A program made the position numbers. DNA of 64,000 bases, from contig JAWMAR010000531.1 in NCBI GenBank assembly GCA_036785375.1, positions 930,001 to 994,000 of the forward strand, written 5' to 3'. The stretch's first letter is position 1. Each line of letters starts with the position of its first letter. Of the stretch, positions 21,701 to 39,100 are shown one piece after another. The stretch is from Leucoraja ocellata (Eukaryota).

Positions 21701-24123
21701 TAATTTCAAAAATCTTCGTAAAATCTTCAACGTTTTTTTTTTCACTCCTTCCAGCTCGGAATCAAAAATACGAAGTTGAAAATTGGAAATCTGAAACAAA
21801 AACAGTATTTGGAGGTGACACTCGGTAGCATCTGTGAAGAGCTGGTTTCTTTGGTTCTGGTGAAGCTTTATTGACTTAACAAAAGGTCACGTCCTTTTTC
21901 CCTTCACGTGTATTCTCTGAGGTGTTGAGCATCCCTAGTATTTTCTGTTCTGCACAAAATATATCCGCCTGCCTAACCACTGACTACATAGCAGTTCCTA
22001 CATCTGGCCATGCAGTTTGCTATGCTTCTGTTCTCCTCTATGATTCTAGCGACCCCCCCCCCCCCCCTCCGCCCTCTACCCTACGCCCAAGCACAGAAAA
22101 AAGCCCGATGATTTGTCAATATCGCTCCACAATGATCCAGTAATTCGATGTCACGTGGATAGTGATTTGCATGAATAATTAAAACTCGGTGACGTTGTGA
22201 TGTCGAGGAGTTCTTAAGGGGAGATTTCTCAAGAACCAGAAACGGACCTCTGTCGGAAAACGTTTAGATTCTGACCCTCGCCACCTCCTTCACCATGTCT
22301 GAATGGATTCGCGTTCTGGCCGCGTTCGTGTTCTGCTTCCATAGTAAGTAGAAAACCTAATCACCAGGCAGCTGCTCTTGCATTCTACTGATAGATTGTA
22401 TGTTACGAATATTAATTTGTTATTTCACCAGCTTCAATCGCAGAGAGTTTGGTGACGCAGGACCCTATGTCCATCTCGACTTCTCCGGGGGAAACGGTCA
22501 AGATGACTTGTACCCTCTCAGGAGACCAGATGAGCAGCTACGTCACTAGCTGGTATTGGCAAAAGACCGGCAGCGCCCCGGTCCTTGTGTGGTATGAGAC
22601 CACCAGAGCTTCTGGAATTCCAGATCGATTCACCGGTACCGTGGATGATCCGAACAATATAATGCACCTGACCATCACCAACCTGCGAGCTGAAGATGTC
22701 GCCGATTATTACTGTTTAGTTGGAACTATTGCCTTCGGGAAAGGAACCAAATTGAATCTAAGCAGTAAGTACAATAATGACTACCTGAAAATTAGCACAA
22801 GGCAACATCCGCTTTCACTTTGATCCGATTTTTAAAGCGCTCTACAAGTTGTCCTCCAATTCTTGCGATATTACGGGCGAATTAAGTCGGTGGCTTTAAA
22901 TTGAAATTTCTGCCAGTTTAATGTATTCACGCAGGATATGTGAGTAGCCGCGAGTGAGAGATAGAGAAAGTCAAACGCGAAGGTCACCTCCTGTTAGTTC
23001 AAGTTGGGGGAAATAAACGAGCAGGTGGGAGCGTCAGCGACAAGGCAGCATCTATGGAGACACAGAGCTGTTCCACATTTCAGGTTGAGTCTCTGCATTG
23101 GGACAAGGTATAACGAGGCCTCTGCAGATGGTTCTGAGTTCCTCCACCAGTTTATTTTTGTTTTGCAGCATTTGCAGCATCTGCCATCGCTCATGCCTCC
23201 GTGTTTAAAATCTTGGAGCGGGCGGACGAATCACTTATTAAGCTGATCTTCTCATCAAGCGTTTCAGCCTTGAGAAGAGAAGGGAATGGTTAAGCGTGGA
23301 TGTAACAAAAGCATGCGTGATAGATTAAAAAGTCACTTAGCTGAGTGAGTGTGGAAAGCATCACTGACGCGGAGACGAAAATAGAGAATTGTTGGTTCCG
23401 CCAGTGCAATATCGGCCTATTTCGCGTTTGTTATTCCCGAATCTTTCTCTTTCTATATTCTACATACTCGATAGTATGGAAATCTCCGTTATCGCGTCAT
23501 GCTGATGTACACTTGTTCATGTCTAAGTAACTACTCGATTAAAAAAATCTCATTTTGTTATCACAGTTGTGGGATGGTTCTCTAATCTCAGGAAAATCTG
23601 AGGCGTTGGCTTTCTCTAAAATTGGTCTCTTAATAGTCAACATTATTGTCACCATGAAGATCAAAACTCAGGATTACCCCTCAAGCATCTCATGCTTCCT
23701 ATCTCCCTTTTCATCCTTAACATGCTCATGAAATCTATCTCTTTGCCTAATAGCTTTCCCCTCCCCGTTTGTTATTCTACGTGAATGGTCTGACTGTGTT
23801 TAACAATGCCTTATGAGGCATTTTGCTGTGACTTTCGACGAGAAAATAAATTTCGAATTAACTTCCGAGCCGAAACTCATTTCCAGTAAATACAAAAAAC
23901 ACAATTATAAAATCTGCAAACGCCGCTATTTTATTCACACTAAACACCTTCGTGAGCATTTTCTGATTGACACTGCAGGGGCTGGTATATCACTCACTTT
24001 CGTTAACTTTTATGCGAATATCTTTGTATTTGGCAAGTTGTTCAGTCCAATATAACTGAACATGTTGATACTGTCGCGATAGAAATAATGTTTGGCTGCA
24101 TTAGTTTGGAATATGGTACGTCG

Positions 24124-24161
<38 letters not shown>

Positions 24162-36100: not shown

Positions 36101-39100
36101 GTGGAATTCTCTGCCACATAAGGTAGTTGAGGCCAGTTCATTGGCTATATTTAAGAGGGAGTTAGATGTGGCCCTTGTGGCTAAAGGGATCAGGGGGTAT
36201 GGAGAGAAGGCAGGTACAGGATACTGAGTTGGATGATCAGCCATGATCATATTGAATAGCGGTGCAGGCTCGAAGGGCGAAAGGCCTACTCCTGCACCTA
36301 TTTTTCTATGTTTTCTATGTGCCTATCCACTCTTCAGAATGACCTCACGGGCCAGACTGGTTTAAGAAATTGTTAGACATGTACATTGATCGGACAGGTT
36401 TGGAGGGATATGGACCAAGCACAGGCAAGTGGGACTAGTGTAGCTGAGGCCTTGTTAGCTGGTGTGGGCAAGTTGGGCCGAAGGGCCTGTTTCCACACTG
36501 TAGCCTTCTATGACTCTATGACTCAGTTTTTCTAAACTCTGTAATTTCTCGACAATGATCTCAGCCAACCCAATTGCGCCAATTTAACTCCAAAGTTTCC
36601 AAGTGTCCTTATTTCTGATTTGTTGTTTTACCCATTCAGAAATATGTTTCACTATATTATCGCCCACAATGATAAATCCTTCAAAGGGCCTTTTGTTTTG
36701 TCAAATGCGTTTCAAGGATTTATCGTGTTTTCATGTAATTGTGCAAAACGCAATTGTCTTTCAAATATCTTCATTGCCATGATACTCCGCGTCTTCTTTT
36801 CCCTTCTCCATCAATCTGCCCCGAACATTTCGAGTTGACAATTGAAGTATTAATGCTTTCAGTCCTATGTCGATGAATACGGAAATTGCGGGAGCGTCCT
36901 CTGAATTGTTAGCTCGTCACACAGTATTATAACCTACAAATATACATATACACATTGAGAACTGTTTTGAAGCTTAAACTCTCCAAGCACAAAGTATATG
37001 ATGTTTGCCGCAAAGCTTATGCGGTGCCATCGAAACCTGCACGATTCATAGCATGTTATCTGTATGGGTAACAACTGCAAAGAAATAATGGTTTATAAAG
37101 TTTCCACAAATTAAGGCTAAAATTAATTTCAAAAATCTTCGTAAAATCTTCAACGTTTTTTTTTCACTCCTTCCAGCTCGGAATCAAAAATACGAAAGTT
37201 GAAAATTGGAAATCTGAAACAAAACAGTATATGGAGGTGACACTCGGTAGCATCTGTGAAGAGCTGGTTTATTTGGTTCTGGTGAAGCTTTATTGACTTA
37301 ACAAAAGGTCACGTCCTTTTTCCCTTCACGTGTATTCTCTGAGGTGTTGAGCATCCCTAGTATTTTCTGTTTCTGCACAAAATATATCTGCCTGCCTAAC
37401 CACTGACTACAAAGCAGTTCCTACATCTGGCCATGCAGTTTGCCACTCTTCTGTTCTCCTCTATGATTCTAACTATACCCCTCCCCCCCCCCCCCCCCCC
37501 CCCGCCCTCTACCCTACGCCCAAGCAGAAAAAAGCCCGATGATTTGTCAATATCGCTCCACAATGATCCAGTAATTCGATGTCACGTGGATAGTGATTTG
37601 CATGAATAATTAAAACTCGGTGACGTTGTGATGTCGAGGAGTTCTTAAGGGGAGATTTCTCAAGAACCAGAAACGGACTTCTGTCGGAAAACGTTTAGAT
37701 TCTGACCCTCGCCACCTCCTTCACCATGTCTGAATGGATTCGCGTTCTGGCCGCGTTCGTGTTCTGCTTCCATAGTAAGTAGAAAACCTAATCACCAGGC
37801 AGCTGCTCTTTGCATTCTGCTGATGATTGTATGTTTACAAATATTAATTTGTTATTTCACCAGCTTCATCGCAGAGGTTTTGTTGACTCAGAGCTCTACG
37901 TCCATCTCGACTTCTCTGGGGAAAACGGTCAAGATGACTTGTACCCTCTCAGGAGCCCAGATGAGCGGCTACAACACTGGCTGGTATTGGCAAAAGACCG
38001 GCAGCGCCCCGGTCTTGGTATGGTATGGGAGCACAAGAGCTTCTGGAATTCCAGATCGATTCACCGGTACCGTCGATTATCCGAACAATATAATGCACCT
38101 GACCATCACCAACCTGCGAGCTGAGGATGTCGCTGATTATTACTGTGCAGTAGAACGTTCTGGTGTAATTACATTCGGGAAAGGAAACCAAGCTGAATCT
38201 GAGCAGTAAGTAAAATAATGGCTATCTGAAAAACGGCTTTTGGACTAATCACCAGCTTTCAATTTTAACCGATTTTCAAAACGTTCAACCTCCAATTCTT
38301 GCAATAATACGGAAGCGAATAAAACAAACCCGCAATTTGCTTTGTGAATATAAACGGAAACTGATGCCATTATAATGTATTAATACAGGGTACGTGAATA
38401 GCCTCCGGTGAGATTTAAAGAAAACGGACTGCACTTCCATTTGCGTAGCGTGACAAAAAACCTTGGGGCAAATAAACAAACTAGCTCAGCGGAGTTAGGC
38501 AGCATCTGTGGAGGCATTTCAGGTTGAGACCCAGTATCGTGACAAAGTCCTAACTCCAACGTGTTCGTACACAGATGGTACCTGGTCCACTCAGCTCGTC
38601 CACCAGTTTGCTTGTGTTTGCTTTAGATTGCAGCATCTGCAGTCTCCCATGTTTGCGTGTTAAAATGTTGGAGCGGATCTCGGAGTCACTTATTAGATGA
38701 TCCTCTTATCGAGCGTTTCAACTTTGAGAGGAGACGGGAATGGTTAAGTCTGGATGTAGCATAAGCATGTGTGATAGATTCAAAAACAAATTAGCTGTGT
38801 CAGTATCTAAGCCAAAACTGACGCACCGATGAATGTATACAATTGTTTGATTGTGGGTTTAGCACTGTCCTGTGAGGATCTTCGCCGTGAAGTTCGACGA
38901 GGAAATACATTTTGAATTTACTCCCGTGCTAAAACTCATTGTCAGCAAATACCAAAACGTAATTATAAAACCTGTACACGTCGCATTTTATTTCACAGCA
39001 AATACTATGGTGAGCATTTTCCGATTGACGTTGCAGGGGTGGTGTATGAAATTGTTGCAAGTCTCAACAAATAGAACATTGAAATAGAACATGCGTTGAA

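What the first reader, a model, noticed from the sequence alone, without database searches (positions are those of the whole stretch)
22432..38205. Paralog differences between clusters 2 and 3 look like shark-type hypermutation fixed in the germline
Seen: promoter and leader are almost identical and C differs at about 2 nt, but V differs heavily and mostly non-synonymously: AGT/GTT and GAC/AGC in FR1, GTC/AAC in CDR1, TTA/GCA and an unrelated CDR3. Several changes are adjacent-base (tandem) substitutions. Known: tandem substitutions are a hallmark of elasmobranch somatic hypermutation. Inference: germline V genes are diversified either by an AID-like process in germ cells or early embryo, or by strong diversifying selection plus gene conversion. 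A germline mutator aimed at pre-joined genes would be an undescribed inherited-repertoire mechanism.
Basis: partly seen in the sequence, partly recalled or inferred. Interest (0 to 1): 0.8.

Follow-up and report, generated by a model that had tools for sequence, protein, structure and literature searches.

The report
Mosaic skate antibody light-chain gene copies
Two neighbouring copies of a pre-joined skate antibody light-chain gene differ in their variable exon because that exon lies inside an older block of sequence flanked by recently homogenised DNA, and one copy looks broken; nothing here calls for a special germline mutation process.

Summary
The window holds five germline-joined lambda (type II) light-chain clusters of a skate. 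In clusters 2 and 3 the promoter and leader differ at 1 of 293 bases, the C exon at 2 of 321, and the V region at 27 of 273, mostly by replacement changes, with four adjacent-base pairs. First, the J-C intron is more diverged than V: 22% where it can be aligned, and more than half cannot be aligned. V is therefore part of a 3.3 kb older core (22380-25712) between flanks about 2% diverged. Second, cluster 3 carries two one-base frame-breaking indels. Tandem changes are at chance level (4 seen, 2.6-3.2 expected, P 0.25-0.38). There is no WRC/GYW or WA/TW excess. V synonymous divergence matches the intron. FR1 and CDR replacement sites change at the intron rate, while FR2 and FR3 are constrained. 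At 10 of 18 differing residues both states recur in other skate or sawfish genes, and 6 are private to cluster 3. Best reading: a recombination or gene-conversion mosaic of old paralogs plus pseudogene decay. This pattern has been known for skate and shark joined genes since the 1990s. A germline mutator is not excluded but has no support.

The parts
19615..29119 (+). Cluster 2 repeat unit (paralogous to 35020-45248)
   Evidence: Self-BLAST. Flanks are about 2% diverged from cluster 3.
22165..22172 (+). Octamer ATTTGCAT in the cluster 2 promoter. It is conserved in clusters 1, 2 and 3.
   Evidence: Sequence and alignment. That the octamer is an Ig promoter element is recalled.
22295..22343 (+). 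Cluster 2 leader exon (ATG plus 16 codons plus 1 base), identical in cluster 3
   Evidence: The leader matches that of Amblyraja protein P0006.
22344..22431 (+). Cluster 2 leader intron. The older core begins within it, at about 22380.
   Evidence: first differences at 22377 and 22387.
22432..22764 (+). Cluster 2 germline-joined V-J exon: 333 bases, in frame, V-set domain running into FGKGTKLNL with no recombination signal between
   Evidence: (V-set E 4e-15).
22765..25714 (+). Cluster 2 J-C intron. Against cluster 3 it is 65-77% identical in patches up to 24619, then 85-87% identical up to the C acceptor.
25715..26037 (+). Cluster 2 C exon (C1-set domain)
   Evidence: (E 9e-25).
35020..45248 (+). 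Cluster 3 repeat unit. It ends 10 bases before the N gap at 45258-45457.
37726..37774 (+). Cluster 3 leader exon
37864..38205 (+). Cluster 3 V-J exon, 342 bases. It has a one-base deletion in the leader-coding start (opposite 22436) and a one-base insertion in J (38185). From the conserved acceptor the frame hits a stop after 6 codons. In the V frame, J runs out of frame into C.
   Evidence: Cluster 1 agrees with cluster 2 at both places.
38206..41214 (+). Cluster 3 J-C intron
41215..41537 (+). Cluster 3 C exon, 2 differences from cluster 2
5913..6260 (+). Cluster 1 V-J exon, same V family (61% amino-acid identity to cluster 2), used as outgroup. Its C exon lies at about 8509-8831.
47560..47905 (+). 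Cluster 4 V-J exon, of a second V family. At 346 bases it is one base out of frame, with an extra G at 47677. Its C exon lies at about 48892-49214.
59049..59384 (+). Cluster 5 V-J exon, 336 bases, in frame. Its C exon lies at about 60370-60692.

Best explanation
Clusters 2 and 3 are two members of a tandem array of germline-joined lambda light-chain genes of a skate. Their repeat units are a recombinational mosaic. About 2.7 kb upstream (including promoter and leader exon) and the C exon plus 3.4 kb downstream were made alike recently, with about 2% divergence. The stretch from the leader intron to the C-exon acceptor, which holds the V-J exon and the whole J-C intron, keeps a much older paralogous divergence.

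Shown here: the sharp change of divergence at both borders. Synonymous V sites and the intron share the high divergence. FR2 and FR3 replacement sites are constrained, while FR1 and CDR replacement sites drift at the intron rate. Cluster 3 as assembled is frame-broken and carries private changes at otherwise invariant residues.

Inferred: the mosaic arose by gene conversion or unequal crossing-over between clusters, resolved in the conserved leader and C exons. Either the flanks were homogenised around a retained core, or a core was imported from a third cluster. Part of the V difference is pseudogene decay of cluster 3. The 'tandem' differences are mostly composites of separate changes in the two lineages, or old shared states.
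For: - **Divergence profile.** 5' flank 56 of 2715 (2.1%). V 27 of 273 (9.9%). First 1.9 kb of the intron 185 of 825 alignable bases (22.4%), the rest not alignable. Last 1 kb of the intron 81 of 903 (9.0%). C exon 2 of 321. C plus 3' flank 77 of 3446 (2.2%).
- **Synonymous sites.** V synonymous sites, 7 of 62, match the intron (P 0.47) and exceed the flanks (P 4e-4). FR1+CDR replacement sites, 16 of 95, match the intron (P 0.66). FR2+FR3 replacement sites, 2 of 112, are far lower (P 5e-6).
- **Replacement to silent ratio.** It is 16:2 in FR1+CDR1+CDR2 against 2:5 in FR2+FR3 (Fisher P 0.007).
- **Tandem pairs.** 4 seen against 2.6-3.2 expected. Non-coding DNA of the same pair shows as much adjacency: 14 seen against 7.1 expected in the proximal intron.
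- **Shared states.** Of 18 aligned residue differences, both states recur among 11 other batoid sequences at 10. Six are private to cluster 3, including two prolines that are invariant or nearly so. One has only the cluster 3 state elsewhere, and one has neither.
- **CDR3 classes.** The short form also occurs in Amblyraja P0006 and Pristis P0007. The long AVxxSGxxT form also occurs in Rhinoraja P0008 and Pristis P0011.
- **V tree.** It gives (Rhinoraja,(c3,(c2,Amblyraja P0006))) with supports 98/92, 96/84 and 97/91, and a c3 branch of 0.14 against 0.037 for c2.
- **Frame breaks.** Two frame-breaking indels in cluster 3, where cluster 1 agrees with cluster 2.
Against: - No donor for either core was found in the window. 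The intron cores hit only each other and dispersed repeats. No eukaryotic genome collection was available.
- The AU test against a c2+c3 clade is only marginal (p 0.0375), and the group was named after the tree was seen.
- Polarised by cluster 1, the nucleotide changes split evenly: 12 on the c2 line, 10 on the c3 line, and 5 of 27 unpolarised. That does not by itself show faster decay of cluster 3.
- The three one-base indels (two in c3, one in c4) lie in runs of two or three identical bases and could be assembly errors.
- The raw share of differences at WRC/GYW is higher in the core (101 of 336) than in the flanks (25 of 123; Fisher P 0.045). The enrichment over all sites is 1.9-fold in both.
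- In both paralog pairs the diverged zone begins in the leader intron, which is also where somatic hypermutation begins in mammals (recalled).
Confidence: 0.8

Rival explanations
1. A germline or early-embryo mutator of the AID and error-prone-repair kind acts on the transcribed, pre-joined V-J region. The V differences are its fixed products.
For: In both paralog pairs the diverged zone starts inside the leader intron, while promoter and leader exon are nearly identical. Synonymous and intronic sites are affected too, so selection alone does not explain the excess. In the other pair, c4/c5, adjacent differences are in real excess: 7 pairs among 23 substitutions against 1.5 expected (P 0.0004). 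Tandem runs of 2-4 bases make up 38-51% of somatic mutations in nurse shark receptors (passages of PMC5931798).
Against: - In c2/c3, tandem pairs are at chance level and all are of length 2.
- Hotspot use is at background level: WRC/GYW 4 of 22 polarised changes against a 12.3% background (P 0.28), and WA/TW 5 of 22 against 18.5% (P 0.39).
- Enrichment at hotspots is the same 1.9-fold in core and flanks.
- V is less diverged than the intron. The intron has large indels, with more than half not alignable. Divergence does not decay with distance but stops within about 10 bases of the C acceptor.
- The zone is 3.3 kb long in c2/c3 but about 0.55 kb in c4/c5, and windows of 6-9% divergence occur far from V in c4/c5.
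- Outgroup states split three of the four 'tandem' pairs into older or separate events.
- The c4/c5 patches carry codon indels, and their states recur in other species.
Confidence: 0.03
2. A recent whole-unit duplication was followed only by point mutation and strong positive selection on V, with no recombination.
For: In FR1+CDR1+CDR2, dN is 0.19 against dS 0.068, and replacement changes cluster there. Skate joined type I genes show CDR-biased differences with replacement exceeding silent changes (abstract of PMC2192082).
Against: Selection on codons cannot raise divergence at V synonymous sites (7 of 62 against 133 of 6161 in the flanks, P 4e-4). It also cannot raise it across 3 kb of intron. 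Within FR1+CDR the excess of replacement over silent sites is not significant (P 0.24). dN there equals the intron rate.
Confidence: 0.03
3. Assembly artefact: the mosaic or the frame-breaking indels arise from mis-joined or poorly polished near-identical clusters.
For: An N gap lies 10 bases beyond the end of the cluster 3 unit, and another lies at 13629-13958. The mosaic borders fall at the most conserved stretches, the leader and C exons. All three exon indels are one-base changes in short runs of one base.
Against: The cluster 3 flanks differ from cluster 2 by about 2%, with their own indels and different upstream sequence, so cluster 3 is a separate locus. Cluster 3 also has private replacements at conserved residues, which fits real decay. 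The same kind of mosaic appears in a second pair.
Confidence: 0.07

Closest known systems
Germline-joined type I light-chain clusters of the skate Raja erinacea (Anderson et al. 1995, PMC2192082; abstract seen)
   Same: A skate with many V-J-C clusters joined in the germline. Differences between germline copies fall preferentially in CDRs, and replacement changes exceed silent ones.
   Different: A different isotype: type I (sigma-2) there, lambda (type II) here. That study compared exons. The intron and flank mosaic seen here was not something I could check in it, because only the abstract and reference list were held.
Lambda (type II, NS3) light-chain genes of elasmobranchs, germline-joined in all species studied (review PMC5192425, passage seen). 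Also the sandbar shark lambda genomic clone (Hohman et al. 1993: title seen in a reference list, content recalled, paper not held).
   Same: Same isotype and the same fused V-J exon, with the C exon a few kb downstream. The best named matches are 'immunoglobulin lambda-1 light chain-like' of Amblyraja, Pristis, Rhinoraja and Leucoraja.
   Different: None in kind. These are further copies of the same family.
Nurse shark NS4 joined and split genes (Lee et al. 2000, PMC2193156; passages seen)
   Same: Closely related paralogous clusters whose history was read from trees. Pseudogenes were noted to evolve faster. Germ-cell activity of an immune-system enzyme (RAG) was inferred from germline sequence.
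   Different: That work concerns joining by RAG in germ cells, not point mutation. It is the kappa-like isotype.
Somatic hypermutation of shark receptors with tandem substitutions (Lee et al. 2002: title seen. Ott et al. 2018, PMC5931798: passages seen).
   Same: Adjacent-base differences occur in V.
   Different: Here they are at chance level in c2/c3, all of length 2, without hotspot bias. They are embedded in a block that includes a heavily diverged intron.
Multigene families with old, diverged antigen-binding exons between homogenised flanks, as described for MHC genes (recalled; not tested or read here)
   Same: An island of old divergence around the ligand-binding exon, inside DNA kept alike by recombination.
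   Different: Whether selection keeps the island here is not shown. In c2/c3 one copy seems non-functional, and the island is mostly intron.

Membership tests
Elasmobranch germline-joined lambda (type II) light-chain cluster | V-set domain and J motif (FGxGTKL) in one exon with no recombination signal between them | tested here: met
   All five clusters have continuous V-J exons.
Elasmobranch germline-joined lambda (type II) light-chain cluster | One C1-set constant exon a few kb downstream in the same orientation, and a split leader | tested here: met
   The J-C intron is about 2.95 kb in c2 and about 1 kb in c4 and c5.
Elasmobranch germline-joined lambda (type II) light-chain cluster | Closest relatives are lambda chains of cartilaginous fishes | tested here: met
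   90 proteins with E below 0.001 among 212 candidates, the best being Amblyraja radiata at 89%; best is Leucoraja erinacea at 88%.
Elasmobranch germline-joined lambda (type II) light-chain cluster | Expressed as a light chain without somatic joining | not testable with these tools
   No transcript data were available.
Footprint of shark-type hypermutation | Excess of contiguous (2-4 base) substitutions | tested here: not met
   c2/c3: 4 pairs against 2.6-3.2 expected, P 0.25-0.38, with no run longer than 2. The c4/c5 pair outside the finding does show an excess (7 against 1.5), but in patches that carry indels.
Footprint of shark-type hypermutation | Bias to WRC/GYW and WA/TW motifs | tested here: not met
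   4 of 22 and 5 of 22, at background level; the same 1.9-fold enrichment in core and flanks. Power is low.
Footprint of shark-type hypermutation | Confined to the transcribed V region and decaying downstream | tested here: not met
   The start in the leader intron fits. However, V is less diverged than the intron, there is no decay, and there is an abrupt stop at the C acceptor.
Footprint of shark-type hypermutation | New mutations arising in germ cells | not testable with these tools
   This needs sperm or pedigree sequencing.
Gene-conversion or unequal-crossover mosaic of tandem paralogs | Abrupt, significant changes of divergence along the aligned copies | tested here: met
   2% against 10-22%, with P from 1e-9 to 2e-6.
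Gene-conversion or unequal-crossover mosaic of tandem paralogs | Different segments give different trees, or a donor copy is identified | tested here: inconclusive
   The V tree puts c2 with Amblyraja P0006 rather than with c3 (97/91; AU p 0.0375). No donor is in the window. The run of cluster-1-like sites in c3 FR1 is not significant (P 0.73).
Pseudogene (cluster 3) | Reading frame broken | tested here: met
   as assembled. Read support could not be checked.
Pseudogene (cluster 3) | Loss of constraint at conserved residues | tested here: inconclusive
   There are 6 private states in c3, and at 1 site c2 alone departs from the other sequences. The c3 branch is longer. However, FR2 and FR3 are still nearly unchanged, and nucleotide polarisation by cluster 1 is even at 12 to 10.

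The most novel reading that the evidence does not exclude
Pre-joined V-J exons of skate light-chain clusters are hit in germ cells or the early embryo by a transcription-linked, hypermutation-like process. Its traces are partly masked by selection and gene conversion. What remains unexplained and would fit this: in two independent paralog pairs the diverged zone begins in the leader intron, and the c4/c5 V exon has a real excess of contiguous differences.
Probability: 0.03. Interest if true: 0.85.

Novelty: already known. Interest (0 to 1): 0.15.

Why it matters
If a germline mutator aimed at joined antibody genes existed, it would be a new way of building an inherited repertoire. The data here do not call for one. 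What the window does show is a clean example of how clustered antibody genes evolve. Promoter, leader and constant exons are kept alike between neighbours, while the variable exon and its intron keep or exchange older sequence, and some copies decay. That is useful for annotating skate immunoglobulin loci. It is also a caution: comparing exons alone, without the intron between them, can make ordinary paralog history look like targeted mutation.

Tried and rejected
- **Donor search for the diverged cores inside the window**. Only the two cores hit each other, at 65-77% identity, plus dispersed repeats.
- **Micro-conversion from a cluster-1-like gene into c3 FR1.** Four consecutive sites match cluster 1, but the run is not significant (P 0.73).
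- **False (haplotype) duplication.** Rejected because the sequence upstream of the two units is unrelated and the flanks differ by 2%.
- **Positive selection as the sole cause.** Rejected on synonymous and intron divergence.
- **Members of the protein clusters of P0006, P0091, P0093 and P0056.** The tool answered that its database is switched off, so further close paralogs stayed unseen.
- **Hohman et al. 1993 (PMC47676).** Not held.
- **Literature searches**. They turned up no paper proposing an AID-like germline mutator for elasmobranch joined genes. The related soma-to-germline feedback idea is in print (listing only).
- **Scripts.** The script stopped with an index error at its last step. 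That step was redone. One search was an empty script.
- **Searches not used.** The third protein search, the representative search, and structure and complex prediction were not used, because they would not bear on the question.
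Full report
**What is there.** The window carries five light-chain clusters on the + strand. Each has a split leader, one exon in which V runs straight into J (FGxGTKL) with no recombination signal, and one constant exon downstream.
- V-J exons: c1 5913-6260, c2 22432-22764, c3 37864-38205, c4 47560-47905, c5 59049-59384.
- C exons start at about 8509, 25715, 41215, 48892 and 60370.
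- Pfam gives V-set (E 4e-15) and C1-set (E 9e-25).
- A search with the c2 V-J exon found 90 proteins with E below 0.001 among 212 candidates. The best is 'immunoglobulin lambda-1 light chain-like' of Amblyraja radiata (89%), followed by Pristis and Rhinoraja. No hit was identical.
- The c5 exon is closest to a Leucoraja erinacea protein (88%; 16 proteins below 1e-25 among 202 candidates).

This is therefore a lambda (type II) locus of a skate. A review states that this isotype is germline-joined in all species studied (PMC5192425, passage). The spliced model was searched exon by exon. The joined leader-VJ-C protein was not searched, so full-length identity to annotated proteins stays unchecked.

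**Checking the observation.** Clusters 2 and 3 lie in repeat units 19615-29119 and 35020-45248.
- Promoter plus leader (22094-22386) differ by 1 substitution in 293 bases.
- The C exon differs at 2 of 321 bases, one silent and one Q/R.
- V from FR1 to one codon past the Cys differs at 27 of 273 bases. That is 18 replacement and 7 silent changes by Nei-Gojobori counting.
The CDR3s differ by 9 bases in length.
- V is more diverged than the 5' flank (56 of 2715, P 1e-9) and than C plus 3' flank (77 of 3446, P 3e-9). That last count includes two short non-colinear repeat matches, 112 columns with 10 mismatches, which I did not remove.

- *The intron is more diverged than V.* In the first 1.9 kb after J, only four patches (825 of 1920 bases) can be aligned. 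They are 65-77% identical and differ at 185 bases (22.4%). The rest has no counterpart. The last kilobase differs at 81 of 903 bases (9.0%). Differences continue to within about 10 bases of the C acceptor and then stop. The diverged stretch is thus a 3.3 kb core, 22380-25712 against 37810-41212, and the V exon is its least diverged part apart from the last kilobase.
- *Cluster 3 is frame-broken as assembled.* One base is missing in the leader-coding start of the V-J exon. From the conserved acceptor the frame meets a stop after six codons. One base is added in J, so FGKG is followed by NQAESEQ, and the correct TKLNLS lies one base on. Cluster 1 agrees with cluster 2 at both places.
- *Cluster 4 also has a one-base insertion*, in the FR2 Trp codon.
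- All three indels lie in short runs of one base and could be assembly errors. I could not check reads.

**Testing the hypermutation reading.**
- *Tandem changes.* There are four adjacent pairs among 27 differences in 273 sites. Expected are 2.6 under uniform placement (P 0.25) and 3.2 when differences are shuffled within FR1, CDR1, FR2, CDR2 and FR3 (P 0.38). No run is longer than two. Non-coding DNA of the same pair shows as much adjacency or more: 14 against 7.1 in the proximal intron, 42 against 40.7 in the distal intron, and 2 against 1.1 and 3 against 2.3 in the flanks.
- *Hotspots, polarised.* With cluster 1 as outgroup, 22 of 27 changes can be polarised: 12 on the c2 line and 10 on the c3 line. 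Four fall on WRC/GYW (background 12.3%, P 0.28) and five on WA/TW (background 18.5%, P 0.39).
- *Hotspots, unpolarised.* Over the whole core, 101 of 336 differences lie at WRC/GYW against 25 of 123 in the flanks (Fisher P 0.045). Relative to all sites the enrichment is 1.9-fold in both, so the core is not specially targeted. For c4/c5 the values are 2.5-fold and 2.2-fold (P 0.33).
- *Transitions to transversions.* The counts are near 1:1 everywhere: 88/97 and 42/39 in the intron, and 25/31 and 41/36 in the flanks.

Power is low with 27 sites.

**Selection.**
- Over the whole V, dN is 0.092 and dS 0.122.
- FR2+FR3 show purifying selection (dN 0.018, dS 0.178).
- FR1+CDR1+CDR2 have dN 0.19 and dS 0.068.
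- The contrast of 16:2 against 2:5 is significant (P 0.007). The excess of replacement over silent sites within FR1+CDR is not (P 0.24).

Measured against the neighbouring intron (266 of 1728) the picture is simple. V synonymous sites (7 of 62) are as diverged as the intron (P 0.47) and more diverged than the flanks (P 4e-4). FR1+CDR replacement sites (16 of 95) change at the intron rate (P 0.66). FR2+FR3 replacement sites (2 of 112) are constrained (P 5e-6). The V exon shares the age of the core. No extra mutation and no strong positive selection are needed.

**Relatives.** I aligned c2 and c3 with cluster 1 and ten named batoid lambda chains. These ten were picked from the 90 hits as the skate and sawfish proteins.
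- Of the 18 aligned residue differences, both states recur elsewhere at 10. Six have only the c2 state elsewhere, so they are private changes of c3, including two prolines that are invariant or nearly so. One has only the c3 state elsewhere, and one has neither.
- Both CDR3 forms are old. The short one recurs in Amblyraja P0006 and Pristis P0007. The long AVxxSGxxT form recurs in Rhinoraja P0008 and Pristis P0011.
- The named 'tandem' pairs mostly dissolve, an inference from residues because the codons of the other species were not seen:
  - AGT/GTT fits one change in each lineage from Ile, the residue in Rhinoraja and Pristis.
  - GTC/AAC sits on a codon that is Tyr in 10 of 11 other sequences, so it changed in both lineages.
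  - TTA/GCA is a change on the line leading to c2 and P0006, which has Phe there.
  - GAC/AGC is a two-base change in c3 to the state of cluster 1.
- A V-domain tree of 28 rows (3 from the window, 25 chosen from the hits) gives (Rhinoraja P0008,(c3,(c2,Amblyraja P0006))) with supports 98/92, 96/84 and 97/91. The c3 branch is 0.14 and the c2 branch 0.037.
- Forcing c2 and c3 together costs 8.7 log-likelihood units (AU p 0.0375). This is marginal, and the group was named after seeing the tree.

**A second pair.** Units 46609-52649 and 58095-64000 (c4 and c5) are 0-5% diverged in most 200-base windows. Stretches of 6-9% occur far from V, and there is a peak of 10.7% over the 3' half of the V exon.
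- Inside the exon, 23 substitutions include 10 within 24 bases of CDR2 and 5 within 8 bases of CDR3. Codon indels lie in CDR1 and CDR2.
- Adjacent pairs are in real excess here: 7 against 1.5 expected (P 0.0004).
- The patches look exchanged or retained rather than newly mutated. The c4 CDR1, CDR2 and CDR3 match Leucoraja P0091. The shorter CDR2 of c5 (YYES-G) resembles Amblyraja P0093 (LYYS-G), with the same missing codon. Its CDR1 deletion recurs in Rhinoraja P0092.
- The CDR3 run can also be aligned as two codon indels plus one substitution.
- The c5 CDR3 residues themselves have no counterpart among the proteins seen. This remains the one piece of pattern that a hypermutation-like process would also explain.

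**Explanation.** The best-supported reading is a recombinational mosaic. Flanks, leader exon and C exon were made alike recently by gene conversion or unequal crossing-over between neighbouring clusters. The V-J exon and J-C intron keep, or were given, an older paralogous sequence. Borders at the leader and C exons are what exchange between otherwise diverged clusters would give, because those are the stretches still alike enough to pair. This step is inferred. Part of the V difference is decay of cluster 3. I could not tell whether the core was retained or imported, nor whether selection for V diversity helps to keep it.

Rivals:
- A germline mutator (about 3%).
- Selection on point mutations alone (about 3%; contradicted by synonymous and intron divergence).
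- Assembly artefact (about 7%).

**Comparison with what is known.** CDR-biased differences with replacement exceeding silent changes between germline-joined skate light-chain genes were reported in 1995 (PMC2192082, abstract). Germ-cell activity of RAG was inferred for nurse shark joined genes, with faster change noted in pseudogenes (PMC2193156, passages). Tandem mutation is a feature of shark somatic hypermutation (PMC5931798, passages). The idea that germline V genes carry the imprint of somatic mutation is in print as the soma-to-germline hypothesis (listing only). My searches found no paper proposing an AID-like germline mutator for elasmobranch joined genes. The finding is an ordinary case of a known pattern.

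**What stayed unchecked.**
- No eukaryotic genome or read collection was at hand, so paralogues and orthologues could be compared only as proteins.
- Supplements were closed and were not needed.
- The two N stretches (13629-13958 and 45258-45457) were left as they are. The second lies 10 bases past the end of the cluster 3 unit, so what follows that unit is unknown.

Noticed in passing
window 47560-47905 and 59049-59384 (clusters 4 and 5): The V-J exons of this second paralog pair differ in CDR patches: a 6-base indel in CDR1, 10 substitutions in 24 bases plus a codon indel in CDR2, and 5 substitutions in 8 bases in CDR3. Adjacent differences are in significant excess (7 against 1.5, P 0.0004). 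Most patch states recur in Leucoraja, Amblyraja and Rhinoraja proteins, but the c5 CDR3 does not.
   Followed up: partly
window 47677: Cluster 4 has an extra G in the FR2 Trp codon, so its V-J exon (346 bases) is out of frame. This is either a pseudogene or an assembly error.
   Followed up: partly
window 38178-38207: Read one base on, the cluster 3 J gives ETKLNLSS. Rhinoraja protein P0008 has FGKETKLNL. The cluster 3 J may therefore descend from a Glu-bearing J lineage rather than from the Gly form of cluster 2.
   Followed up: no
window 13629-13958 and 45258-45457: Two runs of N. The second begins 10 bases after the end of the cluster 3 repeat unit, so the 3' neighbourhood of that unit is unknown. 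They were left as they are.
   Followed up: no
window about 22052-22069 and 37481-37503: Poly-C tracts about 230 bases upstream of the c2 and c3 start codons, of different length in the two copies.
   Followed up: no
window 25262-25468, with copies near 11504-11641, 27252-27387, 43322-43457, 50630-50840 and 62006-62189: A self-complementary repeat of about 200 bases in the c2 J-C intron, with dispersed copies in both orientations. It looks like a miniature inverted-repeat element. Cluster 3 lacks about half of it.
   Followed up: no
window 53000-54400: A G/A-rich low-complexity block (GC 0.55, GC skew 0.54) with degenerate 44- and 91-base repeats. It produces long spurious open frames on the minus strand.
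   Followed up: no
window 2174-3067, 20233-20882, 35657-36308, 50866-51232, 54895-55788, 62215-62583: A dispersed repeat, 75-88% identical and in both orientations, between the clusters. It is probably a transposable element.
   Followed up: no
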